From Strigamia acuminata (lineage: Eukaryota): a stretch of DNA of 64,000 nt. The stretch spans positions 30,814,001 to 30,878,000 of the forward strand of contig OX442314.1 of the NCBI GenBank assembly GCA_949358305.1, given 5' to 3'. Shown here in pieces: positions 11,363-60,781 of this stretch. Numbering within the stretch: position 1 is the stretch's first letter; each line of letters opens with the position of its first letter. A program made the translations under genes and the position numbers. A model generated the notes under the pieces. It was not told the DNA's origin, made no database searches, and saw only the letters and a list, made by a program, of their open reading frames with translations.

Positions 11363-11363
11363 T

Positions 11364-34847: not shown

Positions 34848-35304
34848 TCATTCGCATGTGCAGATTCCATCGTGCCATCCATGTTTGGTCATCGTTGTAT
34901 TTACATAATTGTACAGAGTTGTCTTATTCTCACCACGAGACCACCAGCACGTCAGGTATTTGCAAACATTTTCCAATGTTTGTTCTTTCGTTTCTATAAC
35001 AAATAGATAAAATATAATATAATGTAATGTAATATACTGCTAATATAATACCACAAAATACATGGCTCATTGCACCAAGCATGTCCAGTTTGCATTTTGG
35101 ATAAAAAACATCCCATGTGGGGAGAGCCACAGTTTTGTTAGGAGTGTTGAAAATGTTTTCACAGTAATGATCTGCATCATTACAAAGGGCGACTAATTTC
35201 CAATTTTCTTCCAACTCCGCTCTAATTTGATGTTGGCTGTGGAACTCTGCATTCGTGCAACAAGAAGACAAACTCAGAACGAAGCAAACAATCAACAGCC
35301 TCAT
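34848..35304 (-). CDS. Secreted 8-Cys protein, copy D
   Basis: Same two-exon structure; C-terminus ETKEQTLENVCKYLTCWWSRG...WHDGICTCE*. Confidence 0.85.
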
Positions 35305-36960
35305 CTCGACAGTGTAGATGGAGATAAGCATGGAGCGTATTTTGTATAATTAATTTATATTGCTTTCCAAACAATAACTACATCCCATAAACCCCACATT
35401 AATTAAAACAATCAATAAAATCAGAAGAATCCGGCTCCATCACATTGATTAATATACAGGGTGAACAAAAAGTCTGTATCTTTACTTAATATTTTTGAAA
35501 GTGCTGACAATGCATCTGATCTAATGATGGCAAAGTACTCGTTCACAATTAACTCCTCGTCGCTGAATCGATGTCTTATCGGACTCAATTCCGCACTTCG
35601 TCTTCTCACTCGATCCGTCTCGGCCAGCTTGCGGCTCTTAGGCCGCAACGTTGTAACGTGACAAATTCACGAAATCTCTCCTCAACAGTCGTGTTGAGAC
35701 AAGATGACTCTAGCTGGAATTTTCCTCTCAGCTAGACAATTTCCCACCCAACTTGCAGTTGGCAAGAATAAAATTCCCGTGTCACAGTTGTGGTGACACA
35801 AGAAAGCTCCCACAATTACTTTGGTAATTGTAAGAAAAGAGTCTCAATACTCAGACAAATATCACAAAATCTACTTGAAGAATTCTAGGTTTTCAGGGGT
35901 AAATTTTCATGACTCGTTTTGCTCACTTGTCAGTTGGATTCAGACTGATTCTTTTCTGCTTTCTACAGGAAGCGTTTCCTGTTTGAGAATGCTGTGGGCT
36001 GGTTTCCTTGGCGACCACCCACATATTCTCCCGTTGTTTGACTTCCTTGTCTAGACACATGTATAAAAATAAACTCAAAAAATAAAAATAAAATAACTTT
36101 TTCAGACTCATTTCTGATTCTTCTACTAGTGACCACTAGGGTCACTACAACGTGATTAATATAAGCTCCCCCATCGCTTCACTGCAGCGCATCAAAGTAG
36201 TTTGGTGTTTTTGAGAGTAAGCAATGAATTTAATTTCACCAATCAGGGTGAGATTAACTTTTACTTTTATTTTTTGTTAAAAAATGGTTACAATTTTGGT
36301 TGCATTCTTTATTGTTTATGCCACTTTATTCCAGTGGGTATAAAATTTCGAAAGAAAAATCAAAATTTCTTCATTGACCACAGTAGTAAAAACAAACGCT
36401 TCATAATCATTACATTCATTTAGATGTTAAAACGTACAGTAAAAATCATTAAATCTTCCAATTACATAAATCTCCAAACCAGCTGTGGCAAAGTTACTTC
36501 GCGGACTAGATATTCACTTATCTTGGTGGAGTCAATAAGAGGTGCAAACTTTTTAAAGACTCGCACAAAAAAACAGTTGAAAAACTTTTGTAATACATAA
36601 ATCTTTTGAACTGTTTTATGTTTTATCTTCAAAAAAGGAAGACTAAAAACAAAAACAACTTTTAAAAACCAATTTATTGTGCAAATAGGAATTATTAACA
36701 AGTTTTTTTGTCAAACCGGTTCTTAATGTTTTTAAACGATTCTTAACCGGCTTTTAATGTTTTTTTGGTCAATTTTTATCCATTTTTGGTCGGTTTTAAT
36801 GCTTTTTAATAATATTTTAATGAATTTTTATTTTCAAATACCTCAATAATCGAGGCTTTTGATTGATTTGATTGAATTTATTTGTCAGAAATAGATACAG
36901 ATATAATTTCAATGGTGTAGTTGAAGATACTACACTACAAAAAAAGACATGATTTTTTTT

Positions 36961-37412
36961 TCATTCGCATGTACAGATTCCATCGCGCCATCCATGTTTG
37001 GTCATCGTTGTATTTACATAATTGTACAGAGTTGTCTTCTTATCACCACGAGACGACCAGCACGTCACATATTTGCAAACATTTTGCAATGTTTGTTCTT
37101 TCGTTTCTATAACAAATAGATAAAATATAATATAATGTAATATAATATACACGGTAATATAATACCACAAAATACATGGCTCATTGCACCAAGCATGTCC
37201 AGTTTGCATTTTGGATAAAAAACTTCCCATGTGGTGGGTTCGGCATTTTTGTCAGGATTGTTGAAAAGGTTTTCGCAGTAATGATCCGCATCATTACAAA
37301 GGGCGACTAATTTCCAATTTTTCTCCAAATCCGCTTTAATTTGATCTTGGCTCCCTCCATTCGTGCGACAAGAAGACAAAATCAAAACGAAACAAACAAT
37401 CAAAAGCCTCAT
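36961..37412 (-). CDS. Secreted 8-Cys protein, copy E
   Basis: Same structure. A 1-nt insertion confined to the intron shifts only the unspliced ORF. Confidence 0.85.
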
Positions 37413-37925
37413 CTTGTAACAGCAAGTCGAAATGAATTCAGATGACAGTGTAAATGCAGATAAGCGTGGAGCGTATCCTGTATAATTAATTTTTATTGCT
37501 TTCCAAACAATAACTACATTCCATAAACCCCACATTAATTAAAACAATCCATAAAATCAATAGAATCCGGCTCCATCACATTAATTAATATAGAATAACA
37601 CTTTTCATATCTCAACTTTAACTTGCAATTATTTAACTATTTTATTCATTCCTAGCGTAGAAAAATTTCCCTTCAGTTTAGCTGTTTTAATTTTATCTAC
37701 CAGGTGGCATTAAAATCCATTGAGATTCAATGACGTCAATCTTGACCCGGTCTCCCGTCTTGCCCTAACAACAGTATTAAAAGATAGACCGGGCAAATAA
37801 TGATAGATAAACTTAAAACAGCTAAACTGAAGGGAAGTACGACTGTGTGTTTGTTGATAAAAATTTGACTTGTAATTTATTTCAAAATCAGAATAAAATT
37901 TAAATGTCTAATGATCCAATAATTT

Positions 37926-38396
37926 TCAAGGATAGCACGCTAGAAGTGATTGAGTCAACCTCTGTAAGGTGCTGTTTAGCATGGCCTTTCGTTGCAATTG
38001 ATTAGTTTGATTAGGTCGATCCTTGCTGAAGTCTATTAATTGTTTTGCAATGAGAATTTGTTGATACAGATAATCAAATTCCAGGGAACCTGGTTCGTCA
38101 TTCATATCAGCCCCACACTCCCGGCAGATGTCACCCGCGACTGAATGATGCAAACAATTTTCAAAGATGAAAATCATATTACCCGACTCTAACATTTCGT
38201 AATTTGTCTTTAATGTCTGGACAATTGTTCCTGCCACGGTCGATTTATATTCTTTCTCCGACATTTCGTTAGGTAATTGGTACGAAAACAAAGTCATCCC
38301 CACGGAGATTTTGTCACCATTTTCAACGTTCCATTCGATAAGCCTCGCGCATGCGTATTCGGTAAAATAAATCGTCGTAGTGTTCTCGGCTTCCAT
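37926..38396 (-). CDS. FCP1/CTDP1 N-terminal-domain-only protein, copy 1 (156 aa)
   Basis: RLIEW.V..G...(lipoyl-like)...KSTVAGTIV...ENCLH..V.GDICRECGADM resembles the CTDP1 N-terminus. No DxDxT phosphatase or BRCT domain. Short helical tail. Confidence 0.75.
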   Translation of the reverse strand: MEAENTTTIYFTEYACARLIEWNVENGDKISVGMTLFSYQLPNEMSEKEYKSTVAGTIVQTLKTNYEMLESGNMIFIFENCLHHSVAGDICRECGADMNDEPGSLEFDYLYQQILIAKQLIDFSKDRPNQTNQLQRKAMLNSTLQRLTQSLLACYP

Positions 38397-39090
38397 TGCA
38401 AAGATCAGCGGGGTAATGACTTTGTTCGTGCAGAACGTTTGTTCATATAGTACGATGTATTATTTAAAACGTGTCGTTTACGTTAGTTTGAGAACGTCCT
38501 GTCTACGTAATCAAAATCAAAGATGAAATTATCCAACCGCGGAATGTTGACGCCAGGTTTTCCCACTACCCGCATAAGCAAAATATTTGAAGCCGAGTTT
38601 GAAGCAGATGCGAAATTAAGAATTAAATAATTCCTAATATGTTAAATTATGATGTTTGGATCCAAAATGTTGTACTTACAGTTTAATTACGACACAACTG
38701 GTGGCTTGTTTGTTCTTCGTTCAAATGCAGGTCCGCCTAAACAGACAAAGGAGGGAGACTATCGTGCTTCCATCTTGCTTTTCAAAGACGTTACTAAAAG
38801 GTGGATGTGTGAGGCGGCAAATTTAAAATGTATTTCAATTTAATAAATCACATTATCGTGTAGAAAACCCGACAAATGTAAACAAACTAGAGAAAATTTA
38901 CTTTAAACAAAATCAAAAAATCATCACAAAATAGTACTAAATAAAAGAATTGAAAATAAATTGATTATTATTACAAAAACAAAAAAAAAATTTAAAAAAT
39001 CCAAATATCAAGAAAAATGCGAAACACTGGACTCACACTACGGCATGAAATCAAATTAAACTTATTTCTACACATTTGTCACAACAATTT

Positions 39091-39603
39091 TCAACTTTTT
39101 AAACGTTGCCTTTGCGGAGCTCCAACTAGCAGTGATTTCGTCAACTCACTAATCTCTTGTTCATAACCTTTTATGGTGCGGTTTAATATTGCCTTTCGGA
39201 ATAACTTATCAGTTTGATTACGTTGATCCTTGTACATATTCACCAATTGTTTCGCAATCAGAATTTGCCGGTTAATATAATCCAACTCATGCAGCCGACT
39301 TATCTCATTCACATCGACCGCACACTCCTGGCAAATGTTACCGATGACTAAGCGATGCGAACAATTTTCCAACACAAAAATCACATTCCCCGCCTCTAAA
39401 ATCTCGTCGTTTGCCTTCAGTATGTTTACAATTGTTCCAGCGACGGTCGACTTGTACTCCCTATGAGTTGCTTCGTTAGGTAGTTGGTAGGAAAACAGAG
39501 TCGTCGTCCGCGAAATTCTGCGACCACATTCGACTTGCCATTCAATTAGCCTCGCCAGCGGGTGTTCGAGAAAATGAATCGTCGTAGTGTACTCGAGTTC
39601 CAT
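39091..39603 (-). CDS. FCP1/CTDP1 N-terminal-domain-only protein, copy 2
   Basis: Paralogue of copy 1 with CSH..VIGNICQEC and a coiled-coil-like tail. Intact single-exon ORF. Confidence 0.75.
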   Translation of the reverse strand: MELEYTTTIHFLEHPLARLIEWQVECGRRISRTTTLFSYQLPNEATHREYKSTVAGTIVNILKANDEILEAGNVIFVLENCSHRLVIGNICQECAVDVNEISRLHELDYINRQILIAKQLVNMYKDQRNQTDKLFRKAILNRTIKGYEQEISELTKSLLVGAPQRQRLKS

Positions 39604-40759
39604 CGCAATCATCAACGGCGTGACTGTCAACGTTTCGGTCTGTTCTCGGCTGATGTATTAGTTCGGAAGTATCATCGGTATTTTCTCGTTTTCTTTTATT
39701 ATCTTGGATTTAATCGGGAGCGCACGTTACCAGCCGGTCATACATAAGAACAAACTATGATATTTTCGTTTCGGTTGTTGGAAAACCTGATACGGTAAGC
39801 GGAAAACCTGATTGTTTTCGATAGCGGATCACGATTAAATGTGAAATACTTTCAAAGTTCAGCTGCAGATTGTTATCGTTTTTATATCTGGACAACACTA
39901 ATTCACGTGGAATGTGATAAATATTTGTCAACTCTGTTTTTATTCACTCATTCATTGCTAAATTTCCTAAATTTCCCTCTACGTAAATGCCTAAAATAAG
40001 TTTAAACACAGCACAGTGCTAACTTTCTACTTTTTATTCATTTTTACAATGATATCTGTCTTGAAATTCGAGAATATTTACAACTTTGAAAGCCTTTTCC
40101 AGCAGGCTAAAAAGGTTACAGCTAAGGGGTGCTGGGTCCGCTGCAGTCGGGTTTTCTCTTTTGCCATCACTTCTGACGTCATCTCCGCCATTGCTCTCAC
40201 TGTCGCCGTATTCTTTTAACTTACCATTGAATTTAAATGGAATTTGATGACGTTTTCTACAACCTCCATCACCCTGAGCGACCTGCTTGTTTCCCGGAAC
40301 TCCAGCCGCGCCTTGCTGCGAGTGCACGACGACGATCGAGCAGAGAACGTGACTAAATTCCTACAATTGGACAAATGTTTAAAAAATGTGTGAAATATTT
40401 TGTCACTAGAAATCAGTACTTACGTACATGCCAATAGTTTATAATTTAAAATGCACACATAAAGTTTATTAATAAATATTACATACAAGAGATTAAATAT
40501 GAATGAACTATAAAATTGGAATGTAATGACGCTTTGATGCATTAAATCGAAATGCAAACACTCCAGTGAGAATTTATATGTTAAAAAATACAGGAACTCA
40601 TCAAAAGTGTTCCTGATTTGTGTAAAAGCAGTTTGTTACAGCCAAAAACGTCAATAAATACATTTATAACAAATTATCATTCCTTCAAAACCTTTTATTA
40701 CATTTTTTAATATTTTTTTAATTTGGTGCCATTCAGCATCCCATGTTTGGTGATCTTTG

Positions 40760-41305
40760 GAGGTGGTGGAAATGTTATGGTTTGGGGTGCATTCCGCTGC
40801 ACGGGAAAGACCATCTTTGCCTTTATTTCTGGTAGGATGTATTCTGATACGTATTAAAATGTGTTTAATTCCCATTTAAAGCCCTGGATGATAAGAATTC
40901 CTGGACAAAAGGCCATCTTTCAACAGGTAATGCTCCCATCCGTGTATTCAAGGCAACATTGGTGGGAAGAAATTAATCAAATGGTTCTACAAAAACTAAT
41001 TGATGGGATGAAAGATTGAATTTATAGACTAATTGAACATAAGGGAGGTATCACAGGGTATTGAAAATGTATAAATCTGCAATTTTTACAATGAGTGATA
41101 ATAATTTTGTGCAAGTAAAAAAAGTAAAATATCTACAAATGCCAGAAATTTCAATATTTAAGTAAAATATTACTGCGTAGCAGTGTAAATAGAAATATTA
41201 TTTAATAATAAACATGATTTCATTGTAATTCCTCGTCATTATCATTGCCAACACAACAATTGGGTAAATTTTAACACCGTGATAATTTTTTTGTGAGCAC
41301 CTTAT
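40760..41305 (+). mobile_element. Highly degraded Tc1/mariner remnant
   Basis: VMVWGAF, IFQQ..AP and KGGITGY* fragments. Confidence 0.65.
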
Positions 41306-41725
41306 ATAACATTGATACATGGTAGCGCCCTCTGATGCCAAATTATTACACTACTGTGCGTATGAGCGAGTGCGACGTTGCTCTAACGAACATAGAACAA
41401 GTAAAAAAAATAAAAAATATATTTATGTAACAAAAAATAAATACAAAAAAATTCAAAAAAAGAGATAAGATGACAGAAAAACGAAATGTTGAGTTGAACA
41501 AATACCGGTATTTAGGTCTGTCGTAAGACGCAGAACAGGAGGTTTAGAAGCACCAGTAATGTCACTTCCTCCATGATTGATGAGCTTTGATTTGATTTTA
41601 TTAATTTTTTATACAATTATAAAATTCAATCGATTTATACATATTTTTATTTTAAATAGTAAAAATTTAACAAATACGGTATACAGAAAAGGTCAAGCAA
41701 AAATTATAAATCAGCAACACAGATC

Positions 41726-43740
41726 TTAATTATATCGTCCACCTCTACCTCTACCACGTTTTCTTGAACCCTCCTGATCGTCATTCTCCCAATTCCTTTT
41801 ATTATTATTACTTTCTCTCGCACGAAAATTCCTCTCGTTACGAACAACACGGTTATCCGAACGACCTCCACGGCCACGATGTCTCAACCGCGGGAAATCA
41901 CTACCTCTCTCATTACTCCGCAAATCATTGTCGCCAAACGACTGTCGATGGTCCATTTGAAGGAATTGAAACCTTTCAGGAATATCCCTTTGCTGGAACT
42001 GAAATCCATCTTGATGACGACGGAAATCGGGATTTGGACCTTCCGGTCTCAGCCACACAGCCGGCATTTGTCGATCCGTCGGCGGTAAACCACGAAAATC
42101 GCCACGACGTCTCAACCGCGGGTCTTCATTCCGTGCACACAACTCACTTCCTCTCTCATCGCCAAACGACCTTCGGTGGTCCATTTGATTGAATTGAAAC
42201 GCCTCTTTAGAAATATCCATTTGTTGGAACTGGAACCCATCTCGAGGACGACGGAAATCGTCATTCCCACCATCAGCTTTCCGCACAAACAGCCGCCATT
42301 TGCTCACCAGTCGTCGGCGTAGCAAGCAGCGGCGTTTTATGTTCCACCGGCCGCATCCACTCCTCTTGAAACTCGCGCGCAATTGGCTTCGAGTACGGCA
42401 CTTTGACCTGCAAATCCGATTCAAAATGGCGTGCATCGACCACCGGCGCTTCCACCACTTCATCTTTCGTTTCTTCTGGACTCATCGCGTCAAATTCCAA
42501 CCCCGGAATCGCCCGATCGGACTCTCTAAATACCGGTTCGTCATTCTCAGACACAACAGCTGTCGCGGCAGAATTCGTGTTGTATTTGTCCTGCATTTTA
42601 TCGCCGGGCGAATTCCTCGTCCAGAACTTACTCGAGTGATCGTTCGACCCGGAACACAAGATATGTCCGACCGGATGCCACGCCAGCGACCACACGATGC
42701 CGTCGTGCGCGTTCTCCATCGCCCCGACCTCCGATTCGGCGCCCACGTTCCAGAAGAGCACCGCGCCGTCCGACCCGCCGCTGCAAAACAACGTCTCGTG
42801 GATCGGATGCCACGCGAGACTCGACACCCCCTTCTTGTGTCCACGAAACGTGCGCACTTCCGGACTCGCCTTGCGCACGTCGAACAACTTGATCAGACCG
42901 TCTCTCGACGCCGTCAACAACCAATTCCCGTTCCGCCGCACGTCCATCGCGGCGCTTTTGTGCGAACGCAGCGTCGCCAAACACCGCCCGCTCTTCGGAT
43001 CCCAGAACTTGACCGGCTGCTGGCCGTCCTTGCTGCCGGACACGATTATCGCCTTCCGCGGGTGCCAGTCGACGGCCAACACGTCGGCGCCGTGGCCGCG
43101 CAGAATCCTCTCTTCGACGCACTGCTCGAAGTCCCAAATGCGGAGCGTCTCGTCGTCCGAACACGACGCGAACTTGGTGTCGTTCGGACAGAAACTGAGC
43201 CCCCGCAACGCCTCCTTGTGCGCCTGGAACATCTTGACGTTGTTCATGTTGGTCTGCCAGTATTTGGCGTATCCGGCGTGGTCGCCCGTCACCATCCACG
43301 TGTCGTTGTGGCTCCAGACCATGGCGCGGACGGGCGCGTCGTGCGCTTGGAGGATCGTTTCGAAGTTGAAGGTTAGGCCGTTCCAGAGGGTGAACTCGCC
43401 GCTGGACGCGCCGGTGACCAGGCGGCGGCCTTCGGGGGTCCAGGCGACGCAGTTGATGGGGCAGCGGGTTTTGTTGGTAGCGGCGCGGACGAATTTGGTC
43501 GTGACGGAGTTGGTTGGGTTGTGGGTCAGGTGCGATGGGGTAGGAGGTGTCGGGCTGGATGCAGTGTTGGTCGCGGTGGTCGCGCTGCCACACGCGGGCG
43601 AAGAGTTGGTTGATTATGGAGGAGTTGTAGTCGACGGTTTTACGTACGACGGCTTTTCGGAGACGTTTGCCGTCGAATTCTGTGGTTTGCGCGGGGAAGT
43701 TTGATGCGAATCGCGGTTGGGTGGGCGGAGGGGTTTGCAT
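41726..43740 (-). pseudogene. WDR33: Intronless WDR33 (Pfs2) copy with a frameshift at ~43535 and probably a second near 42290
   Basis: FDGKRLRKAV.RKTVDYN in one frame. TTKFVR..TNK..CP...[35 protein letters not shown] and the WD40 repeats through SKFWTRN.PGDKM.D.YN in another. Arg/Gly/Asp-rich tail in a different frame from the WD40 region. Confidence 0.88.
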
Positions 43741-45389
43741 CTTAGATGGATTTGTGTTTTCAAGGATTAGTGGATGGTATTTAAAGTATTGAGCGTGTGT
43801 TTGGCGTTTTGGAGAACGTACATATGACGTAAGGTTGAAAAATCAAAATTACCACCGATGTTTGGTACGGGGTTCACGGCTCGGTGAACACGAGTTTCTT
43901 CTGAATATAGAAACAATCTCGATACTGTATTTTCCGCAATCAATCGATTGAATTTAGTTTTTTCGACGGATATTAAGAAATTTAAAATTTAAATTTAAAA
44001 TTTTTAAGAAATCATGTGCACGTCAATTAATCAAGTCATAATTAACGGGTCCTTTAATTCTTGTGGCACAGGGCCTCAAAAGTTCATAAAATGTGTGATT
44101 CGAAGTGCGAAAAACAATAGGCGCATTTATAAAATTATTTAAATTTGTTTATATTTTTAAATGTAAAATTTAACGTGCAAAATTTAAATTTAAAAAATAA
44201 AAACAAGCTGCCAGACAGCTGAATACGTGGCAACAACACAACAAGAATTTTAATGCTAATAATTTCCAACTATAACAAAACAGAAACACAGTATGGAGTA
44301 GCATCTATCAATTTCTTGCATTTCAATACTCCAGTCACTTCCATACATTGTCGTAACGTTTTGCGCACTCCTATCTTGCGTTTTCAATTAACTAATACGT
44401 TGTGTCGTGATGGGACCTCGTCATACTTCTTTAAAGACAAAATTTCAATAAAAAACCTACTACTTTCCACTAAAATACTTACTGCACTTTCCAGAATTAT
44501 CTTGTTTCGTCACCCATATCTTTTCCTTTGAACATTCGACGACCTTAGCAAGCACTTTCATTTCTGTATCACAATAATAATGAATAACCGTTCCGACTCC
44601 CCATAATAAGCCATTCCAGTCCCGATGCAAGGCTCCAGAGGCTGGTGGGTCTTCGCCTAAACAACTCGTCGGCTCTGTACCAGTCAAAAATGAATTAACA
44701 TTAAATTCGTACTGCCCCGTAAGGCTACACGCATTTAGGGACAACAACTTTTGCGAATGGCATTTTTTTTTCTTATTTATTTTATTTTGGTTTGTAAAAT
44801 ATATAGTTAATTAATTATTCTAATTTGAAATTGTCATTGTTATTTGCTTTTTGAGTGCGACATTCAAGACCAGCTCCCGAGAGATATTTATGGCGTTTAA
44901 TTAATGGATTTGAAAGTTGTCCGTAAATGTGTAAGGCCTTACACGACAAGGGTTTATTTTTCCTTATGCATCGAAGGGTTGAATGGAAACTTACCTGGAA
45001 GCTTTTCCTTAAATATTCGTCTTCCTTTTTCGTCAAGTCCGCAGACGTGGAACTTCCTAAATCGTTCCGTCCACTCTCCGTTACCTTTACATTTGACTTC
45101 AGTTGCAACAGGTTGGTCTCTTTGATCACTGCACGTATAGCGCACCACTGTGCCACGAGTACGTGTTCGCCCGTCCCAATGTGAGCGTAGCAGTTCGTAG
45201 GTAGGTGGATCCGCGGAGCAAGTTTTTTTTGCAGTCCCGAATAAGCGGCTAAGACCTTTAACAAGAAATTCAATTCAAATGAGTGGTGGAGCCATTAATG
45301 GATTTAAGCTTTGAAAGAAAAAATGCGTAACAATATCTCGTGCAGTGGCGTATCGACTGATCTTTGCACAAATGGATCCCCGTGAAAGA

Positions 45390-45760
45390 ATTTGAGAGTT
45401 TGAGAAAGTTTGCGAAAACTTTGAGATAATTTAAAAAAAATTTGAGAAAATTCGCGAAAAATTTGAGAAAAATTTGAGAAAAATTTGAGAAAAATTTGAG
45501 AAAAATTTGAGAAATATTTGAGAAAAATTTCCGAAAAATTTGAGAAAAATTTGAGAAATATTTGAAAAAAAATTCCAAAAAATTTGAGAAAAATTTCCGA
45601 AATTGTCGGAATGGTTAAAATTTAGCAGAAAATTTTCAAATTTTTAAAATTTAGCAGAAAATATGTCAATATTTAGCCAAAATTTGTCAAAATTTTCAAA
45701 ATGCATCAAAATTTTGTACAATTTTTTTAAATTATATCAAAATTTTCAAATTTTCTCAGT
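45390..45760. repeat. Low-complexity 11-bp satellite (AAAAATTTGAG)n
   Basis: Direct inspection. Confidence 0.9.
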
Positions 45761-45915
45761 TTTCGCAAACCAACCGTGTGTTTTGATGTCATTTTATGCG
45801 CAACAATGGAATGCTACAGACTGCTGACATTGTTCCAATTCGAATCCAAACGTGAATCGAGTTGTGGGAACTCGATTGACGAACGGAGTTGTTGGGCGCA
45901 CGGAACGGAGTTTAG

Positions 45916-45980
45916 TGTTCACACCAATCTTGGATCTAGATCGGCAGCTTTGGATGAGATCCAAAAGCTTGGTGTGAACA
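45916..45980. mobile_element. 65-bp micro-MITE with TGT...ACA ends and 4-bp TSD
   Basis: TIR TGTTCACACCAA/TTGGTGTGAACA; TTAG on both sides; related copy at ~62140-62203. Confidence 0.8.
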
Positions 45981-46580
45981 TTAGTCGCTTGTGATCCACA
46001 TCCTCACCTCCTACGCCACTACACAAATTCAACACATTCAAGCCATACTTTCGTCTTCTTCTTTACTCACTTGTCAGCGTCACCACAGAAATCATGGCAA
46101 CAAGTACAACGACCAAAAGTATCCCGACAATACCTGCCCATTTAACAGCCGGTCTCTTCACCCTATTTTTGTTCGAAGCATCTCCGGGCTTAGGCGATCC
46201 TGCACTAGGCGATTCCGGATCAGTTTGTTCCGACGTCCCAACAGCAGCCATTGCTTCCAACGTCTATCGACGACAACAACACGAATTAGAATGCTCGCGG
46301 ACCACGTCTGCCATTGTTGGTGCCATCACGCGTGACGTATGTTTTTCACGTTCGTATTTTTCTCTTGAATTGTCGACATGATATTTCATTCTCTTTGTTT
46401 CCTCGTTTTGAATGAACAAGAATCAAAAGCGGTCGATTTTCTTTGTTGTTGCCTTACAATCATAGTAATCCAACTAATCTCCATTTCCGCCGGATATTAC
46501 ATGTATGAAAGTAAGAAATCGTGCGAATAAAAGTGATATTTTGACATCAATATACGTATTTTAAAACAGCTTACTTCATA

Positions 46581-46799
46581 TGCATGGGAGAGCCGCCCGC
46601 CACGCCAGGCCTGTTGTCGGATTGGGATGGATTCAAACGTTACTCTGGACTTGTTGTCAACTATCGATGCAATTCGGAGAATCAACACGAAGTGGTACAG
46701 ATTGTCGATTGTGTTGGTGGAGAGTGGCAGATTGTCATGAAGAAATCGGGACTGTGTGCAGCAGGTGCACACGCAGGTGAAATACAGAACGTCTTATGA
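46581..46799 (+). CDS. Isolated sushi/CCP-like domain segment, opposite strand to the neighbouring gene
   Basis: CMGEPPATPGLLSDWDG...GLVVNYRC...DCVGGEW...GLC has the same spacing as the domains at 44480-45220. Gene context unclear. Confidence 0.5.
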   Translation, partial: CMGEPPATPGLLSDWDGFKRYSGLVVNYRCNSENQHEVVQIVDCVGGEWQIVMKKSGLCAAGAHAGEIQNVL

Positions 46800-47139
46800 T
46801 AAACGATTAGTGCTTTCAAGATTTCGGTTTACGAGTGGTTGTTTGTAACAAGATTAAGTTGTATTGATGAAAATTAAAACTTATCGAGTCCATATATAAG
46901 ATAAAAATATGTAGAAGCAGTCGGCATTAACCATTTATTTTATATACACCGGTAAAACATTTTTAAGTATGACTGCGTGTGGTCTGTGGTTAACCCTTTC
47001 AATGTTTTCGTTTACACAAGCACTAAAAACCGGAACTTTGATTGCACCTATTATTGTAAAGATAATCTACACATGAAATACCAAAATGCTGCAAAGTGCG
47101 TAAAATCCCTTGCAACATCAAAACAACAGCAGTCACAGG

Positions 47140-47196
47140 TAATAACCATAACCAAAACCAAAACCATAACCATAATCATAACCATAACCATAACCT
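47140..47196. repeat. (ACCATA)n hexamer microsatellite
   Basis: Direct inspection. Confidence 0.9.
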
Positions 47197-47275
47197 TATT
47201 TATTTTAATCATCAGCAGAATTTTCATTAAATGCACTTTACAAAATGTAATAATATCATTTGCAAAGCAATAGCA

Positions 47276-49726
47276 CTATATGTTTTTTGTTTCAGCTGAG
47301 TTTGCCTTGAATGCAGCATGCACATAAACCGATTTCCTTTTCGTCGATGCAAAACGAGTGTTCATCGTTCTGGGCATGGATGATCTTAATTTCCTCCAGA
47401 AGTAAGGCTTCTTGGCTTCAACATATGTCGTCAACGTTATGAATGATTTGAATTCCTGATCGATTTTGGACAAGTCGGGAACTTCGTCTGGCACAACTGC
47501 GATCACCCGACGCACTTTATCTTGGAGCGCCTTTTGGTAAGCGATGTCGAACTCCAAACGACTCCACGAACTCTTCAAATAATTGTCAGTCAACACTATG
47601 ATGGTCCGTTTGCTGCTTTCCACCGGTTTTACTATCTGATCCGTTATAAATTCACCCGCGCCCCAGTCCCGGTTGTGTAGACACAGTTTGTACGAAGGAT
47701 TGCCTGTTTCCAGCCCCGGGACGAGGAAGTCCACGATCCAGTCTTCGTCCTCGCTACTGTACGAGACAAATGCGTCGTATGTTTTGTCTGCATCGATGTC
47801 TTCTTCGGTCACAAATCTCAAACAAATTCCTTTGGAGAACATGTAGTAGAAAATTTCTGATTTATACTTGTAGGAGAGTATTGTAAACACACTAAGTAAA
47901 ATTAAAATTGCAATAACTGGTAGTAAAAGGAATAACAAATTAAAACTTTTACAAATTCGATCAATATCAGTAATATCAGTAAAATTGTAATGTATATTAT
48001 CTATCATACAGGTTAATGTGTTTTTATCCTCAAAAGGGTGAGATTTGAGCACACGTTTACTCATTTCATAGTCACATTTCCATGAATTATTCGATAGCTT
48101 GAGTTTTTCCAAATTTAACAAACTCGCAATTTTATCGTCGAATTTGCTGAGGGAGTTGTTGTTTAAATGCAGAACGGCCAAGTTTGGCAATATAGGCATA
48201 TTTTGTAACAATTTCAACCTATTATACGAGAGATCTAACATTGTTATCTGCGACCAAATTGGATCATGTTTTTCTGGTAACGAGGAAATCTTATTTCGGG
48301 TTAAATTTAAACAAACAGCAACTGCTGAACCATACGAATGTATTTTGGGGAAACGAGTCAAGTTGGAGTTAATGCAAGCAATCGACACATGTAGTGGGGC
48401 ATCGAGGTCATCAACACTGCAGTAACATCCAAAAGGACAATTTTTAGGATACTCACAATACAAGTTTTTAACCGTTAGCAGAGATGTCCCATACATTTTA
48501 AGTGGGTTGGAACAGGAATTGTTTTCTGTGTTAAATCTGATTGTTGCACTCTGATTGCGCAGATACTTGATGATGTTTAATCTGCAGTCGCACACAAATG
48601 GATTGTGAGACAAGTCAAAATCAACTAATCCGGTGTTACGTATGTGAATAATTTCAAAATTGGTGAAATTGACATGGGCAATTTGATTGTGGCTCAAAAT
48701 AACTTGAGAGACGCTTTGAAATGCTGTCAGATCATTGTCATCTAATTTGCTAATATTATTAAATGAAATGTCAATGCTTTTGGTTACACTATCAAACATG
48801 CCATGGCGAATTTCATGTAAGCAGCAATTAGAACATTTATAGTTTTTTATGTACTGGCCAACTTCTGTTTCAAAAAGAACTTTGTACATTTTAGGACAAT
48901 TATTTGACATATCTATTGTCTCAGCATTCGTTATGAAACTTGTAGGAGGAAGCTCTATATATTCAAAATTATTATTTCTCAGATCAAGATGGACTGCAGA
49001 ATCGTGGGGTGTGGACATTTGCTGAATAAAGCTTATCGAATTATCAGTTAATGTGATGTGTTTTAGCTTTTCGCAAAATTCAAGTCCACTTAAAAAAACG
49101 TTAGTGATGTTATTCGAATTAAGACGTAGCACTTCCAGTTTATTTGTGAAGCTGACCAACAATTCAAGATTTTTAATTTGATTGTGGCTGAAATCAATCT
49201 CCACAATAGCTTTGGAAGATAAAAACATATGTTTGGGTATGTCATGGAGTTTATTATTGTTCATGTAAAGTTTTCTCAGAAACCGATTTTCTGACAACAG
49301 GTCCTCGGGTATAGATTCGATGGAGTTGTGAGATAAGTCTAGCACTTCCAAATATTTCAAATCAACTAATAAATCTAATAACGGTAATAAACTCAGATTA
49401 TTATGCAATAAGTTGAGTTCCTTTAGGAATAATGTTTGGTTGAAATCGCTCCTTGAAACAACACCAATACGGTTGTTACTGAGATCATAACTCTCTAAAG
49501 AATTAAAGTTATATATGACACTGGGTATATGAGTGAATTTGTTAAAACTTAAATCTAATTGATGTAAATATTCCAGATTGCTAATGTTGCTAGTGAACGA
49601 CACTAAACAGTTGTTGCGCATTTTTAATGTTGTTAACCATTCTGGGATTGCATTAAACATTGTGGACGTATTAATGCTATTAGTTGTTTTTAAGGGATTG
49701 GTGCAGAAATTCAATATCTCAAACAT
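47276..49726 (-). CDS. Intronless Toll-like receptor, multiple-cysteine-cluster (protostome) type; N-terminus uncertain
   Basis: Many LxxLDLSxN repeats, NPFVCDC, CPFGCYC, NSWKCD, a TM helix, and a TIR domain (YDAFVSYS, LCLHNRDW, SKRTIIVL, W.RLEF, FWRKLR). Confidence 0.93.
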   Translation of the reverse strand: MFEILNFCTNPLKTTNSINTSTMFNAIPEWLTTLKMRNNCLVSFTSNISNLEYLHQLDLSFNKFTHIPSVIYNFNSLESYDLSNNRIGVVSRSDFNQTLFLKELNLLHNNLSLLPLLDLLVDLKYLEVLDLSHNSIESIPEDLLSENRFLRKLYMNNNKLHDIPKHMFLSSKAIVEIDFSHNQIKNLELLVSFTNKLEVLRLNSNNITNVFLSGLEFCEKLKHITLTDNSISFIQQMSTPHDSAVHLDLRNNNFEYIELPPTSFITNAETIDMSNNCPKMYKVLFETEVGQYIKNYKCSNCCLHEIRHGMFDSVTKSIDISFNNISKLDDNDLTAFQSVSQVILSHNQIAHVNFTNFEIIHIRNTGLVDFDLSHNPFVCDCRLNIIKYLRNQSATIRFNTENNSCSNPLKMYGTSLLTVKNLYCEYPKNCPFGCYCSVDDLDAPLHVSIACINSNLTRFPKIHSYGSAVAVCLNLTRNKISSLPEKHDPIWSQITMLDLSYNRLKLLQNMPILPNLAVLHLNNNSLSKFDDKIASLLNLEKLKLSNNSWKCDYEMSKRVLKSHPFEDKNTLTCMIDNIHYNFTDITDIDRICKSFNLLFLLLPVIAILILLSVFTILSYKYKSEIFYYMFSKGICLRFVTEEDIDADKTYDAFVSYSSEDEDWIVDFLVPGLETGNPSYKLCLHNRDWGAGEFITDQIVKPVESSKRTIIVLTDNYLKSSWSRLEFDIAYQKALQDKVRRVIAVVPDEVPDLSKIDQEFKSFITLTTYVEAKKPYFWRKLRSSMPRTMNTRFASTKRKSVYVHAAFKANSAETKNI

Positions 49727-50853
49727 GTCAAATTCATATTCTTCGAACAGTTATAATTTGAATGAAATATAATAAATGACAGAAGTTAGGAATTAATGAC
49801 TAGAATTAATGGTTAGTAAGCTAGAAAATAGGAGGAAATGAAGATATTTCCTTTGTTCGCTCGGAACAAAGAATTCGCTACCGGTTGTTGAGCGCGAAAA
49901 ATTGGCGCGCAACAAACGGTGTTTGTAAATGAATTAAAATATACAATTTCTTCCGTGGTGACTATTTATTTAATAAAAACACATAAAATTACTAAATAAC
50001 GACTCAGGGTCACCACAAATGTAAAAGCATCGCGTAGGTAAAGAATTACTGATGCCTGATCCTGGTCTGTAAGAAGGTCGTGGAATGTTACTGACGAGAC
50101 CTGCTCAATCGCATTAAATGATCTCTAACTTTACTGCTATCAAATTCAACACATGCATTTTCAAATTCTACATCTGCATTTTCCTTATAAGCATAAGAGT
50201 AAGGATAAGGATAAGGATCCGCTCCTGCGCCAAAGTCGACGCCATTAATCACTTCTTTCGCTGATCCGGAAGTAGATGTAGATGGCGGAGGTGTATCGTC
50301 ATAATAACGACTGCGTGATCTTGATCGTGAATTATTCCTTATTGGTGATCTCGATCTGTGAACATTTTCTCTGGTCAGTCGCGCATTTTCTCTGCTCAAA
50401 CGATCATTTTCACTGGTCAGTCGCAACAGCTGTTCTTCTAACTGACTGTTAACAACTTTTTCTCCTCTTTCCCGAGCATCGCAGGAAAGCGTCACGTTGC
50501 ACCAACGTGCACCGTGAAGCGAAAACGTGCAGCGCACGATTGTTGTAGTATTTAACCTGTTCAACAATACCAATTGATATCATTGTTTCATTCACCTTTG
50601 CCGCTGTTGCACCGTGATTGTTTCTAACCGTTTTTGTCGTCGTCCGCGTGATTTTCTCCAATCGTTTTTGCCGTCGTCCGCGTATCTATTCCTAAAAGAT
50701 GGCTTCCTCCTTAACACGAATTCTTTCCCAGGCTAAAATCAATTCTCGGCAATGGTACGACGGTCAGAAATTTATATTTCGGGAAGGATATTCAGTTAAA
50801 ATATCTTAGAAATGTACAAAACCAACGATAATCGAGAATTTAAATGTATACCA

Positions 50854-50973
50854 TATAAAGTGAGGTAAAATAAAAGAGTCAGGTAATTTCTCAAATCATA
50901 TACTCTCTCTGTCGGGGAGTATGTGATTTGAGAAATTACCTGACTCTTTTATTTTATTTTACCTCACTTTATA
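50854..50973. repeat. 120-bp near-perfect palindrome/hairpin
   Basis: ~55-bp arms, short loop, one 5-nt slippage indel, two T:G mismatches. Confidence 0.92.
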
Positions 50974-51168
50974 AATTCACTTGTCTAGCTAAAGCCAAAC
51001 TATCTCGCGCACAATAAGATAGGTAATATGCATTCGAAGCAGTGGAAACAAAAAGTATGTAATAAATTTATTATCAAATCAAAATCTAACTATTTATTTA
51101 CCGTAATGAAATAAAACTTCAATACAATTGATATCAAATCTAAATTCAAAATTTTCCCGTCACAAGTA

Positions 51169-53832
51169 CAACCCAGTTGCAAAAATATACAATCACTCCA
51201 TCTTATCAAATAAAGTGCTTTTTCTTTTGATCACTGTGTAGTTATGAAATAGAAAAATTATCTGAAACCAACTAAACTAGGTAAATTAAACTCTCCTCTT
51301 TCAGTGGAAAAAAAGTTTTTAACAATAATTGCGTTTCTTTCGCCACCGGAAGTGACGTCAAAAACGTCATTATTTCCGAAAAGAAAGTGGCCAAAGTTAT
51401 TTTAGCCAAAGGTAGCAATTGGCTTACTTTTCTTCCTTTCACTTTTACTTTCGCGATCGGCGCATGCGCATTAGTCATTTGTCAGCCAAACCAACAATCA
51501 AGTAAAGGTTTATAACTTGACAACGTATAATAGTAAAACATCATTTTTAACTGAAAAAACGTTCGTTTTTATCGAAAAAAACGTTTATTAAACTCAAAAC
51601 TAAAGAGGAGAAGTCAGTCTCTGCCTGCGTGAGAGTTAGCACTTCCGGAAGTGTAACTTTTTGTGTAATTCCGGAACCGGAAGTGCGTCATTTTTTGTGA
51701 TTTTTTTCCCGGAAGTGGCGCCACCTGTTGGCGGTAACTTCTGGTAAGAAATTTTAGTCACGGTTGTGGGAAATATTGAATATTTTAAAAATCTGAGTGT
51801 ATATTCAGATTCCCAGGGTGTGTTTTTGGGCAAAAAAAGGAGAAATAGAGATCAAACAGCGGGTAAAAAGGTAAAACAGCTGGTCTTTGCAGGTGTTTGC
51901 GGGTCTGGGTTGGTGTTTGCATGTCTGGGTGGGTGTTTGCGGGTCTGGGTGGGTGTTTGCGGGTGCTGGCGGGTGATGGCTGCATTGGGGTTTGGGTTTG
52001 GTTTGGGCCAAAATTGTATTGGCTGCATTGGCGTTGGGTTTAGGTTAAATTTTTGGTTTGATTGTGTTTGGGTTGTTGTTGTGTTTTATATTTTATTGGC
52101 CCGATTGGCGTTGGGTTTGGTTGTGCGTTGGTGTGGTTTTAGTTTGGGTTTGTATTATTGTGGTTTGGGTTGGATTATTGGTTTAGTTTTGCAAAAATGT
52201 ATTTTATGATTTGGCAGTATACATTTGTCTGATCTATGGCTTTGCGGGTGAACAGCTAGTTAGTTACTAAAAACTGGATTCGTGTATATTAAAACCAGAT
52301 TAAAATCAGATTACAGCATGCTAAAACTAGAATTTGAGCATGTGCAAACCAAAGGAAAGTAACAACAAGTAAGTTCATTCATTCTAAAGTGCCTTTTCTT
52401 TCTTTGCCAAAGTAAGAAAAGGAAAGATTTTTCTTTCCTTTCGCAAATTGAACGCACTTAATTTTCAAAATACATCAAAAGTTATCTGTATTTTTGTAAC
52501 TGTAATACATTTCAAAATAATCCAATCAGCTCATTCGAGTTTCAAAAATATACAATCAGTATACAAAATGTTTTTAGTTATTGATGTCATTATAAACAAA
52601 CTGTAAATAAATTGTAAGGAGATATGCAAATTAACTAATACAGACTGATTTGACTGAATGGAGAAGTTAATCGAGTTCCAAACTGTTAATCTAACTTGAA
52701 CTCAATCATGGGAAGAGGAAAAACAACCAGTAAAGAAATACGTGAATTAATCATAAAAAAACATTTGAAAAACCAATCAACAAGGTCTATAACTTCGGGT
52801 TTAGATGTCTGCCAAAGTGTGGTGGTGGAAATATTAAAAAAATGGAGGATAACAGGGACATCTTCACCTTCAAAACCACTTGGAAGACCAAAAATTACTA
52901 GTAAAAGGAATGATAAAGCATTAAATTGAGTGCTAACAGGAAAAAGACATGCCACTACACCTGAAATTACCGTTGAATGGGAAAAAATTATCGGCAAAAA
53001 GGTTTCTGATGCCACAACACGACGACGACTCAGAAGCCTGGGTTATGGTTTTTACCATGCAAAAGAAAAACCTCTCCTTACAAAGTTGCACATTACTAAG
53101 CAAAGAAAATGGGCTAATGAGCACAAGGATTGGACAATAGATGAATGGAACAACATCATGATGAATCCAGATTTTGTGTTTGTTAGGGTGATGAACGAGG
53201 AATTGTTGTGCGCAAAAAAAACTGTAAAATTTCCACAAAGTGTAATGATATGGGGGTGTAGACCAGTTAAATTTTATTGACAAGACAGCGCTTCATGTTA
53301 CACTGCCCCATGTTACACTGCCCGATCAACTACAAACTGGTTAAATGGTCATAACATCAAAAAGATGCAAAACTGGCCACCAAATAGTCCAGATCTTTCG
53401 CCAATCGAAAATGTTTGGGGAATAATGAAAAAAAAGGTTCGACTGCGTAAACCAACAACCAAAGCTGAGTTGTGTAGTGTTTTAAAAGACAAATGGAACA
53501 AGATTACACCTGAGCAATATTCTAAACTTGTATTATCCAAGCCTGACCGTATGAAAGCTGTTTGTAAAGCTAAAGGAGGAAATACAAAGTACTGATTGTA
53601 TATTTTTGAAACTTGAATGATCTGATTGGATTATTTTGAAATGTATCACAGTTACAAAAATAAAGATAACTTTTGATGTGTTTTGAATATTGTTAAAAAC
53701 TTTTTTTCCATTGAAAGAAGAGAGTTTAGTTGGTTTCCGATAATTTTTCTATTTCATAACTACACAGTGATCGAAAGAAAAAGCACTTTATTTGAAAAAA
53801 TGGAGTGATTGTATGTTTTTGCAACTGGGTTG
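51169..53832 (+). mobile_element. Tc1 transposon with long IR/DR-type TIRs and a pseudogenised transposase (52708-53595)
   Basis: TA|CAACCCAGTTGC...GCAACTGGGTTG|TA. MGRGK...GRPKITS, SVMIWGC, WPPNSPDLSPIENVW, KGGNTKY*. Stop at ~52928, frameshifts and deletions. Confidence 0.92.
51328..52462. mobile_element. ~1.1-kb insertion splitting the left Tc1 TIR
   Basis: TIR homology to 53590-53832 stops at ~51328 and resumes at ~52463. Imperfect inverted ends TAATTGCGTT / AACGCACTTA. GT-rich repeats at 51880-52190. Confidence 0.65.
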
Positions 53833-53966
53833 TATTTACTTTAACAATATCAAAATTAATTTAAAAAAATTGATAATTACAAAAAAAATTAATTTAATTT
53901 ATGAAATTAAATTTAACTTACTACGCTTGATTTGTCACAAAATTTCAAATTTCTTAAACGTGATCT

Positions 53967-54464
53967 TCATCTTTGCGACGCTCTAGCTACAAATGATTCT
54001 GTCAAATCGCTTATCTCTTTTTCATACCCTTTTATGGTGCTATTTAAAATTGCTATTCGTATCAACTCATCCGTTTGATTACGTTGAATCTTATACATAC
54101 TTACCAATTCTTTCGCAATCAAAATTTGTCGATTAATAAAATCCAACTCATGCAGCCGAGTTATTTCATTCATATCGACCGCACACTCCTGGCAAATGTT
54201 ATCCGCGACTGAAAGATGCAAACAATTTTCCAACACAAAAATCTCATTCCCCGCCTCTAAAATCTCGTTGTTTGCCTTCAATATCCGGACAATCGTCCCC
54301 GTAACGGTCGACTTATACTCCCTCAGACATCCTTCCGCAGGTAATTGATAAGAAAACAAAATCGTATCCCGTGAAATTTTGTTACCACATTCAACTTTCC
54401 ATTCGATTACTTTTGCGTACGAGTGTTCGAGAAAATAAATCGTTGTCGTGTTTTCGAGTTCCAT
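53967..54464 (-). CDS. FCP1/CTDP1 N-terminal-domain-only protein, copy 3
   Basis: Close paralogue of copy 2; intact ORF. Confidence 0.75.
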   Translation of the reverse strand: MELENTTTIYFLEHSYAKVIEWKVECGNKISRDTILFSYQLPAEGCLREYKSTVTGTIVRILKANNEILEAGNEIFVLENCLHLSVADNICQECAVDMNEITRLHELDFINRQILIAKELVSMYKIQRNQTDELIRIAILNSTIKGYEKEISDLTESFVARASQR

Positions 54465-54704
54465 TGCAAAGATCAACAGTGTGAATAATGACTTCCAAGG
54501 TTCCGACGGTCTTATTTATATCAATAAGCTATAAGTAACGTCTTATTTACGTTTGTTTACAACGTTTTGTGTACGTAACCGCGATCAAAGATCCAAATGT
54601 TTGAATCTTTGAACCTCGCTGCACTGCGCTTCATTCTTTGCAGTTCTTTAGCATAATTGTAATTTTTTTTTATACAAATAACATATTTTCAACTAAATTT
54701 TTAA

Positions 54705-60301: not shown

Positions 60302-60781
60302 ACCGAATTAATAAAGTTATAAAATGAAGTTCCCATTTTCGTTTTATTTAATTATTTATTTTGTTGTAATGAAAAAAGTCAAGCAGAGAGTTACTGTTGG
60401 GCGACCAAAAGTCATTAACTTACCATAATTGTTAATGCATGATGCTGACTTGTGAGCAAACCCTTACAATTGGAAAACTTGTTCAGGTAAGATAAAACCA
60501 CATTAAACAATACTGGCAAAGGACGCGATATAGGTAATAAACTTCCTGCATAAACCTATGGCACGCCAGACTCCAGTAGAGTTTCTTTGGTTGGTTGAAT
60601 TTTTTATTGTTTATAAATACGTAAGAAGAATTTAAAATATAATCTAGAGGAACCTTTTATAACTTAAGCATTGAATAGCAGCCATTGTTTTGGAGTACTA
60701 ATAAAAATAAATGCCCCATTAATGAAAAGGATAAAGGTTTTTACGATATCAAATGTCTTCGTCTCAATCAGTTGTTATGAC

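What the first reader, a model, noticed from the sequence alone, without database searches (positions are those of the whole stretch)
37926..54464. Three genes encoding only the FCP1/CTDP1 N-terminal module fused to a short coiled coil
Seen: three intact single-exon ORFs (37926-38396, 39091-39603, 53967-54464) with the lipoyl-like fold pattern and C-x-H...C-x2-C, followed by a shared LD[YF]..[RQ]QILIAK.L helix. There is no phosphatase motif or BRCT. They are clearly diverged from each other yet all open, suggesting selection. Known: FCP1 is the RNA polymerase II CTD phosphatase. Inference: non-catalytic microprotein-like competitors or adaptors at Pol II. I know of no described family like this.
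Basis: partly seen in the sequence, partly recalled or inferred. Interest (0 to 1): 0.78.

Follow-up and report, generated by a model that had tools for sequence, protein, structure and literature searches.

The report
Centipede phosphatase-less FCP1 front-end gene family
Three intact reading frames, likely from a centipede, encode only the front domain of the RNA polymerase II phosphatase FCP1 joined to a predicted long helix; they show purifying selection and have a relative in a Strigamia maritima record, so they are likely enzyme-less regulators whose binding partner is untested.

Summary
Residues 1-~103 are the FCP1/CTDP1 N domain: best full-length match is Strigamia maritima FCP1 (E 3.6e-32, about 50% identity), the predicted fold is lipoyl-like, and all four CHCC ligands are kept. 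There is no DxDxT motif, and no FCP1 phosphatase or BRCT exon was found in the window. dN/dS is 0.30-0.42, tail included. A fourth member with the same tail sits inside a S. maritima record named P450 (T1JDH6). The four form one clade, sister to S. maritima FCP1, on branches about 7-8 times longer. The 55-70 residue tail is predicted as one helix, and one copy lost exactly one heptad; coiled-coil pairing is not shown. Conserved FCP1 residues in the zinc loop have eroded, including the position spaced like the important fission-yeast Tyr105. That favours a re-purposed adaptor over a plain competitor of FCP1. Expression, splicing and Pol II binding are untested. No description found in 10 literature searches. 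A real, undescribed, lineage-restricted truncated-paralog family; function inferred.

The parts
37926..38396 (-). g1: 156-aa ORF, FCP1 N domain plus helical tail that lacks 7 residues (one heptad) present in g2, g3 and the S. maritima copy
39091..39603 (-). g2: 170-aa ORF (173 aa from ATG at 39612), FCP1 N domain plus helical tail
53967..54464 (-). g3: 165-aa ORF, FCP1 N domain plus helical tail; AlphaFold2 model mean pLDDT 92.7
54225..54464 (-). g3 residues 1-80: predicted lipoyl/biotinyl-like (barrel-sandwich hybrid) fold; no lipoyl-type acceptor motif in the central hairpin
   Evidence: (Z 12.8, rmsd 2.4, 80 aligned to 3crk_C)
54183..54224 (-). g3 C-x-H-x7-C-x2-C putative zinc knuckle (same motif in g1 at 38115-38156 and g2 at 39322-39363)
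   Evidence: motif described in PMC4436666
53970..54173 (-). g3 tail, predicted single helix 98-164 (g1 37929-38105; g2 39094-39312); homologous to the tail of S. maritima T1JDH6; origin unresolved
54099..54104 (-). GTAAGT donor-like hexamer inside the g3 tail (GTGAAT at the same place in g2, 39238-39243; absent in g1); the sequence after it is still under coding selection
54505..54594 (-). Upstream element of g3 shared with g1: four ACGT cores at -112, -101, -88, -77; candidate promoter
   Evidence: 62 of 84 aligned bases identical, z 6.8 against 300 shuffles
38437..38526 (-). Upstream element of g1, ACGT cores at -112, -101, -87, -76 (and -42); not shared with g2

Best explanation
These three ORFs are truncated duplicates of the FCP1/CTDP1 gene under purifying selection, which keep its N domain but no phosphatase, and they likely act as nuclear adaptors in which the N domain would dock on transcription machinery while the predicted long helix would pair with itself or a new partner. 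Shown: FCP1 ancestry, one origin next to S. maritima FCP1, loss of catalytic and BRCT parts in the ORFs, selection on both module and tail, and a tail shared with the S. maritima copy. Inferred steps: (1) the 5' part of FCP1 was duplicated once in the Strigamia lineage, by retrocopy or partial DNA duplication (not resolved); (2) the sequence after the zinc knuckle became a ~65-residue helix; (3) local duplication gave g1, then g2 and g3; (4) fold and zinc ligands were held while the zinc-loop surface and the charge changed, so binding specificity likely shifted from that of FCP1; (5) the protein would sit at or near FCP1's N-domain docking site and bring a different partner, or a second copy, in place of the phosphatase. 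Identity and selection: about 0.9. The adaptor-at-transcription-machinery mechanism: about 0.4.
For: HMM search of 1.84 billion representatives: the top two hits are S. maritima T1JDH6 (profile positions 1-154, E 2.8e-33) and S. maritima FCP1 T1IZ83 (1-103, E 3.6e-32). An FCP1 HMM matches residues ~3-103 at 66-78 bits. Tree of 25 N domains: truncated clade 98/91, with S. maritima FCP1 100/100; branch 0.084 for FCP1 against 0.58-0.72 for the copies. The 45-row mixture-model tree has the same shape with weaker support, 90/88 and 91/98. dN/dS 0.36-0.39 in the module and 0.24-0.48 in the tail. The tail matches the S. maritima tail without gaps over 36-52 residues, p <= 0.0004 against 5000 shuffles. 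g1 lost exactly 21 nt in frame. W22, Y39, G56 and the four CHCC ligands are kept in 4 of 4 copies. Shared upstream element in g1 and g3. Literature: the fission-yeast N domain and each CHCC ligand are essential, and the authors propose that it targets Fcp1 to Pol II (PMC4436666, abstract and passages). Mammalian CTDP1 lacking residues 2-133 fails to keep RPB1 stable (PMC11880454, section 9).
Against: No RNA, protein or binding evidence. The N domain's own partner was unknown in the paper read (PMC4436666), so the docking site is assumed. Zinc-loop residues P84 and M87 are lost in 4 of 4 copies, A92 in 3 of 4, G95 in 2 of 4. Position 87 is spaced like S. pombe Tyr105, whose change to alanine makes cells sick, and it is Ala in g1 and g3. 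Net charge of residues 1-100 moved from +2 in S. maritima FCP1 to -6 to -10. These changes could mean that polymerase binding is lost altogether. Point mutations in the FCPH or BRCT domain abolish CTDP1 binding to RPB1 (PMC13443452, passage), so an N domain alone may not hold on. The heptad pattern is modest: 50-58% hydrophobic at the best a/d register against 33-38% overall, with no null test. The helix rests on few true tail homologues, and A2 aligned FCP1 residues under it. The S. maritima member is known only as part of a gene model named P450.
Confidence: 0.42

Rival explanations
1. Plain dominant-negative competitor (microProtein-like): the free N domain occupies FCP1's own docking site and lowers CTD dephosphorylation; the tail only stabilises or dimerises it.
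For: The whole N domain is kept, from the start codon to just past the zinc knuckle, with all four ligands. The N domain is essential and non-catalytic (PMC4436666). The cut point is close to the mammalian 2-133 deletion boundary.
Against: A competitor should keep the parent's conserved surface, yet the copies keep 15-18 of 26 conserved positions against 23 of 26, and the zinc loop and charge changed. The tail is under selection as strong as the module.
Confidence: 0.17
2. Fully re-purposed protein: the fold and zinc site serve as a stable head on a helical stalk with a role unrelated to transcription, such as a structural or decoy role in germline or immunity.
For: About 7-8 times the parent's rate; eroded functional loop and acidic shift; neighbours include a Toll-like receptor, a CatSper3-like channel sequence and repeated secreted-peptide genes.
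Against: No alternative partner is indicated by any search. Neighbourhood is weak evidence in an animal genome. The S. maritima copy ends in a basic KRRR patch that looks like a nuclear signal (reading from my own knowledge).
Confidence: 0.25
3. The ORFs are first exons of longer spliced genes that continue into a phosphatase or another domain.
For: g3 has a perfect TTG|GTAAGT and g2 has TTG|GTGAAT at the same codon. Short database hits that look like genomic FCP1 first exons also stop matching soon after the zinc knuckle.
Against: g1 has no GT there. After the site, dN/dS is 0.23 (95% CI 0.08-0.56) for g2-g3; for pairs with g1 it is 0.47 and 0.58 with intervals that include 1. That stretch also aligns without gaps to the S. 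maritima tail. tblastn with 23 FCP1 C-terminal parts gave best E 0.039, and an HMM over 3244 stop-to-stop segments gave best E 4.2, with 38 kb of downstream DNA in view for g1. g2 lies 0.7 kb upstream of g1.
Confidence: 0.06
4. Formerly functional, now silent copies (young pseudogenes) in a region rich in intronless duplicates.
For: A frameshifted intronless WDR33 copy and a C-terminally cut CUL5 copy lie nearby. No expression data. None of 4 exact ORF translations looked up is in the 15-billion-protein collection.
Against: All three frames are intact at dS 0.5-0.76, with dN/dS below 1 in every whole-ORF pair. Neutral survival is under 1% per ORF. The upstream element is conserved.
Confidence: 0.09
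5. Unrelated lipoyl/biotinyl carrier proteins, or captured viral genes.
For: Weak Pfam Biotin_lipoyl hits, E 0.004-0.04, below the cut-off. The best solved-structure matches are lipoyl and biotinyl domains. Atlas hits of 0.82-0.85 are bacterial lipoyl clusters. Two viral lipoyl-domain models match at E < 0.001.
Against: Those matches are 10-24% identical, against about 50% to S. maritima FCP1. The CHCC knuckle is an FCP1 feature. No PDB sequence covers the FCP1 N domain (hits start at residue 122), so fold searches could not return it. No relative in viral contigs.
Confidence: 0.01

Closest known systems
FCP1/CTDP1 (S. maritima T1IZ83; S. pombe Fcp1 N domain aa 1-139)
   Same: Whole N domain with the CxH-x7-CxxC motif; 49-55 identities in 101-102 aligned residues; one clade with the S. 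maritima protein.
   Different: No FCPH catalytic domain, DxDxT, BRCT or acidic C-terminal part; eroded zinc-loop surface; a helical tail in place of the phosphatase; several copies; much faster evolution.
S. maritima UniRef T1JDH6, residues 181-376 (record named Cytochrome P450)
   Same: Same N domain plus same tail, E 2.8e-33; similarity extends to the three codons before the ATG.
   Different: About 39% identical to g2; longer proline-rich, basic C-terminus; recorded as fused to a P450 fragment, likely a gene-model artefact; never named as FCP1-related.
microProteins (single-domain truncated paralogs such as Id or LITTLE ZIPPER; recalled, no paper read)
   Same: Small, keeps one non-catalytic module of a multidomain parent.
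   Different: 156-173 aa, carries an added selected tail, and inhibition of the parent is not shown.
Moonshiner, the germline TFIIA-L paralogue recruited by Deadlock in Drosophila (PMC12658099, passages)
   Same: A paralogue of general Pol II machinery re-used through a new partner: the model for the adaptor reading.
   Different: Different parent; Moonshiner's tissue and partners are known, while none is known here; no homology claimed.
Lipoyl/biotinyl carrier domains (PF00364)
   Same: Predicted fold, Z 12.8.
   Different: 12% identity in that match, below the Pfam cut-off, no acceptor motif, followed by a zinc knuckle.

Membership tests
FCP1/CTDP1 phosphatases | N domain with CxH-x7-CxxC motif | tested here: met
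FCP1/CTDP1 phosphatases | FCPH/NIF domain with DxDx(T/V) | tested here: not met
   no motif in 3 of 3 ORFs, no Pfam NIF hit, no catalytic exon found in the window
FCP1/CTDP1 phosphatases | BRCT domain and acidic C-terminal region | tested here: not met
FCP1/CTDP1 phosphatases | Association with RNA polymerase II | not testable with these tools
   no centipede Pol II subunit sequence was in hand; needs pull-down
Lipoyl/biotinyl carriers (PF00364) | Barrel-sandwich hybrid fold | tested here: met
   predicted model
Lipoyl/biotinyl carriers (PF00364) | Pfam cut-off and acceptor-lysine motif (DKA/MKM, motif recalled) in the hairpin | tested here: not met
   14-17.5 bits against cut-off 22.1; hairpin sequences lack the motif
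microProteins (definition recalled) | Homologous to one module of a larger multidomain protein and lacking its effector domain | tested here: met
microProteins (definition recalled) | Interferes with the parent or its complex | not testable with these tools
   needs expression and binding assays
Coiled-coil proteins | Heptad repeat with helix-helix pairing | tested here: inconclusive
   long helix predicted, one-heptad deletion, modest a/d enrichment; no dimer model obtained
Retrogenes | Loss of the parent's introns | not testable with these tools
   the parent's genomic sequence is not held; several short hits hold the whole N domain in one reading frame, so lack of introns here does not prove retroposition

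The most novel reading that the evidence does not exclude
The first family of free-standing FCP1 N-domain proteins: centipedes cut the essential, structurally unsolved targeting module off the CTD phosphatase, remodelled what followed (possibly the start of the catalytic domain itself, ending at a decayed DLDQT) into a long helix, and use it as a tissue-specific adaptor that brings a new partner to RNA polymerase II in place of the phosphatase. It would also be a natural stand-alone construct for solving the N domain's structure and finding its partner.
Probability: 0.3. Interest if true: 0.78.

Novelty: new variant of a known kind. Interest (0 to 1): 0.56.

Why it matters
The FCP1 N domain is essential in fission yeast and needed for Pol II stability in mouse cells. 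Yet no solved structure covers it, and its partner was named as an open question (PMC4436666). Here evolution has kept that domain on its own, under selection, in at least four genes. Comparing what the copies kept (core, zinc ligands) with what they lost (zinc-loop surface) separates fold residues from candidate contact residues, and it gives small natural constructs for structure and pull-down work. If the copies bind Pol II, they would be a new way to tune the CTD phosphorylation cycle without an enzyme. The limit is range: so far they are seen only in Strigamia-like centipede sequence.

Tried and rejected
Word-indexed protein searches found nothing at E <= 0.01: A1 near length (926 candidates), A1 longer (7996 scored), A4 near length (1372). 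They also missed the known hits P0001 and P0002, so they are weak evidence on range. No related locus in metagenome contigs (182 pattern matches, 0 confirmed) or viral contigs (32, 0 confirmed). No RNA runs could be obtained, so expression and splicing are open. The first fold from 3 sequences was unusable (pLDDT 42.5). Tail as decayed FCP1 sequence: Smith-Waterman p 0.74-0.95, HMM p 0.13-0.84, hhalign probability 0.1. A gap-free profile slide put the best register at S. maritima FCP1 residue 117, lining up L-N-x-T with L-D-Q-T: p about 0.03 for all four tails, 0.05-0.37 for single tails over all registers, and p 0.56 against the S. maritima protein alone. The block was anchored by eye, so this is a lead only. 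Tail alone: one weak Pfam hit (Whi5, E 0.089, below cut-off) in 3 tails; Atlas gave no feature hit and only generic helix matches for the S. maritima tail. A recalled likeness of that tail to LINE ORF1 N-termini found no support in those calls. The bacterial promoter scan does not apply to an animal gene. Earlier findings: none by place, sequence or words. Literature: 10 searches. No listed title or abstract start describes a stand-alone FCP1 N-domain gene, and none of the 20 listed rows holds FCP1 or CTDP1. Only listings were seen for most papers. Four older papers were not held, among them those on Fcp1-Rpb4 binding and elongation stimulation, which may map N-domain contacts. No supplements were read; the crosslink table of PMC13443452 may bear on N-domain contacts.
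Full report
Observation. The three intervals are closed on the plus strand and open on the minus strand: g1 156 aa, g2 170 aa (173 from an upstream ATG), g3 165 aa. They are 56-75% identical to g3 and are the only copies in the window. Each has C-x-H-x7-C-x2-C at residues 81-94 and no DxDx[TV]. Pfam gives only sub-threshold Biotin_lipoyl hits, plus one sub-threshold HydF hit in g1.

Selection. Nei-Gojobori dN/dS is 0.30 (g3-g2), 0.42 (g3-g1) and 0.38 (g2-g1) at dS 0.51-0.76; 0 of 1000 bootstraps reached 1 for any whole ORF. The module gives 0.36-0.39 and the tail 0.24-0.48. Simulated neutral decay left 0.4-0.9% of 3000 ORFs stop-free. Because all copies share the truncated form, this selection most simply acted after truncation. 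g1 and g3 also share an upstream stretch at -130 to -41 (62 of 84 bases, z 6.8) with four ACGT cores at matching offsets; g2 does not share it (z 0.1 and 1.2).

Identity. A profile search of 1.84 billion representatives gave 49 hits. The best two are from the centipede Strigamia maritima: T1JDH6 over profile positions 1-154, and FCP1 T1IZ83 over 1-103. Of the 49, 23 carry the NIF phosphatase domain and 4 are true lipoyl proteins, best E 2.1e-9; 42 carry the CHCC motif. T1JDH6 is named P450, but residues 181-376 are a fourth family member. Its tail aligns without gaps to all three window tails (p <= 0.0004), and the likeness extends to three codons before the ATG, so the fusion is likely a gene-model artefact. 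The other short hits look like FCP1 gene fragments; none of the 15 tested shares the tail (scores 10-24 against 46-66). The organism is therefore likely a Strigamia-like centipede (inference).

Origin. In a 25-row tree the four truncated proteins form a clade (98/91) sister to S. maritima FCP1 (100/100); four FCP1 rows with the motif were not used as full-length rows there (P0001 entered as the truncated copy; P0031, P0045 and P0048 were left out). The 45-row mixture-model tree agrees with weaker support (90/88, 91/98). Bootstraps had not fully settled in either. Since the split, FCP1 changed 0.084 per site and the copies 0.58-0.72. Retrocopy versus DNA duplication cannot be decided without the parent's gene. 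Intronless CUL5 and WDR33 copies nearby make retroposition plausible.

Structure. With a 45-row alignment AlphaFold2 gives mean pLDDT 92.7, pTM 0.62: a beta fold at residues 6-80, the knuckle, then one helix 98-164. The beta part matches lipoyl and biotinyl domains (Z 12.8, rmsd 2.4 over 80 residues, 12% identity). No PDB sequence covers FCP1's N domain, so fold searches could not name it. g1 lacks exactly 21 nt in the tail, which would keep a coiled-coil register. The a/d enrichment is modest, and no dimer model was obtained.

The tail. It has no convincing Pfam or Atlas match. Local alignment and HMM tests find no link to the FCP1 segment after the knuckle. MAFFT and a gap-free profile slide nevertheless place it on FCP1 residues 117-158, with L-N-x-T over the catalytic L-D-Q-T: p about 0.03 for four tails together, mostly not significant singly, and anchored after the fact. 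This is a lead, not a result.

Splicing. g3 has a perfect donor-like GTAAGT in the tail, g2 a weaker one, g1 none. Past that point g2-g3 dN/dS is 0.23 (0.08-0.56); pairs with g1 are 0.47 and 0.58 with intervals that include 1. The stretch is conserved in the S. maritima protein. No FCP1 catalytic or BRCT exon was found in the window by tblastn with 23 queries or by HMM over 3244 segments. Onward splicing is unlikely but is not excluded without RNA.

What was kept and lost. Of 26 N-domain positions at least 70% identical in 23 FCP1 rows, the copies keep 15-18; S. maritima FCP1 keeps 23, and the range among all FCP1 rows is 15-26. Core residues and all four zinc ligands are kept in 4 of 4. P84 and M87 are lost in 4 of 4, A92 in 3 of 4 and G95 in 2 of 4. 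Position 87 is spaced like S. pombe Tyr105, the one non-ligand residue of ten tested whose alanine mutant was sick (PMC4436666, passage). It is Ala in g1 and g3. The module's net charge went from +2 to -6 to -10 in the window copies. Either the contact surface was retuned, or that loop packs on the catalytic domain and became dispensable.

Mechanism. The N domain and each CHCC ligand are essential in fission yeast, and the authors suggest it targets Fcp1 to Pol II, partner unknown (PMC4436666, abstract and passages). Mammalian CTDP1 without residues 2-133 does not keep RPB1 stable, and CTDP1 chromatin binding falls after RPB7 loss (PMC11880454, section 9). Against a lone N domain binding well, FCPH or BRCT point mutations abolish RPB1 binding (PMC13443452, passage). 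I commit to a non-catalytic nuclear adaptor: the N domain docks on transcription machinery with shifted specificity, and the helix pairs with itself or a new partner (0.42). Rivals: a role outside transcription (0.25), plain competitor (0.17), silent copies (0.09), first exons (0.06), lipoyl or viral protein (0.01). The nearest functional model is Moonshiner, a germline TFIIA-L paralogue recruited by Deadlock (PMC12658099, passages); this is an analogy only.

Novelty. These are not members of the FCP1 phosphatase family (catalytic and BRCT features not met), nor lipoyl carriers. Truncated paralogues re-used as regulators are a known kind. A stand-alone FCP1 N-domain family was not seen in the listings of 10 literature searches, and the one database member is mislabelled. 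Papers seen: PMC4436666 (abstract, passages), PMC11880454 (passages, section 9), PMC13443452, PMC13336285, PMC4244043 and PMC12658099 (passages). Verdict: real, undescribed and lineage-restricted, with function inferred; interest 0.56.

Noticed in passing
window 30065-32098 (-): Intronless 677-aa cullin-5 copy (E 8.9e-156 to human CUL5) that stops at about residue 698 of 780, so it would lack the C-terminal region that carries the Nedd8 site (location recalled); a second truncated housekeeping duplicate with an intact frame.
   Followed up: partly
window 41726-43740 (-): Intronless WDR33 copy (E 3.8e-134), 55-56% GC, with frameshifts and an early stop; looks like a decaying retrocopy of a Pol II 3'-processing factor, between g2 and g3.
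   Followed up: partly
window 58647-60301 (+): CatSper3-like ion-channel sequence (best PDB match E 1.3e-27) spread over different frames and interrupted by a tandem repeat; introns or breaks not resolved.
   Followed up: partly
window 47276-49726 (-): Single-ORF 816-aa Toll-like receptor (LRR and TIR domains); a TLR expansion is reported for S. maritima (PMC4244043, passage).
   Followed up: partly
window 4803-5168, 25496-25864, 28719-28991, 34930-35331, 37107-37535 (-); 60722-61021, 62581-62931, ~63630-63950 (+): Two tandem families of small cysteine-rich ORFs with hydrophobic, signal-peptide-like starts, probably multi-exon; 4 of 5 scanned have no Pfam hit and one has a weak sub-threshold hit; could be venom-like or immune peptides.
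   Followed up: partly
window 6883-7824 and ~9583-9806 (-): Glycosyltransferase family 49 (dystroglycan-type) ORF, E 5.4e-68, with a partial second copy.
   Followed up: no
window 10260-20740: Copia-type LTR retrotransposon (gag, integrase, RT and RNase H-like ORFs read from translations) with identical 197-bp terminal repeats and a 200-N gap at 16808-17007.
   Followed up: no
UniRef T1JDH6 (P0001): S. maritima record named Cytochrome P450 looks like a gene-model fusion: a P450 fragment at residues 96-158 and an FCP1-N family member from residue 181.
   Followed up: yes
window 2795-3289 (+): 164-aa ORF with a weak B-box zinc-finger match (E 0.13) followed by a helical-looking stretch.
   Followed up: no
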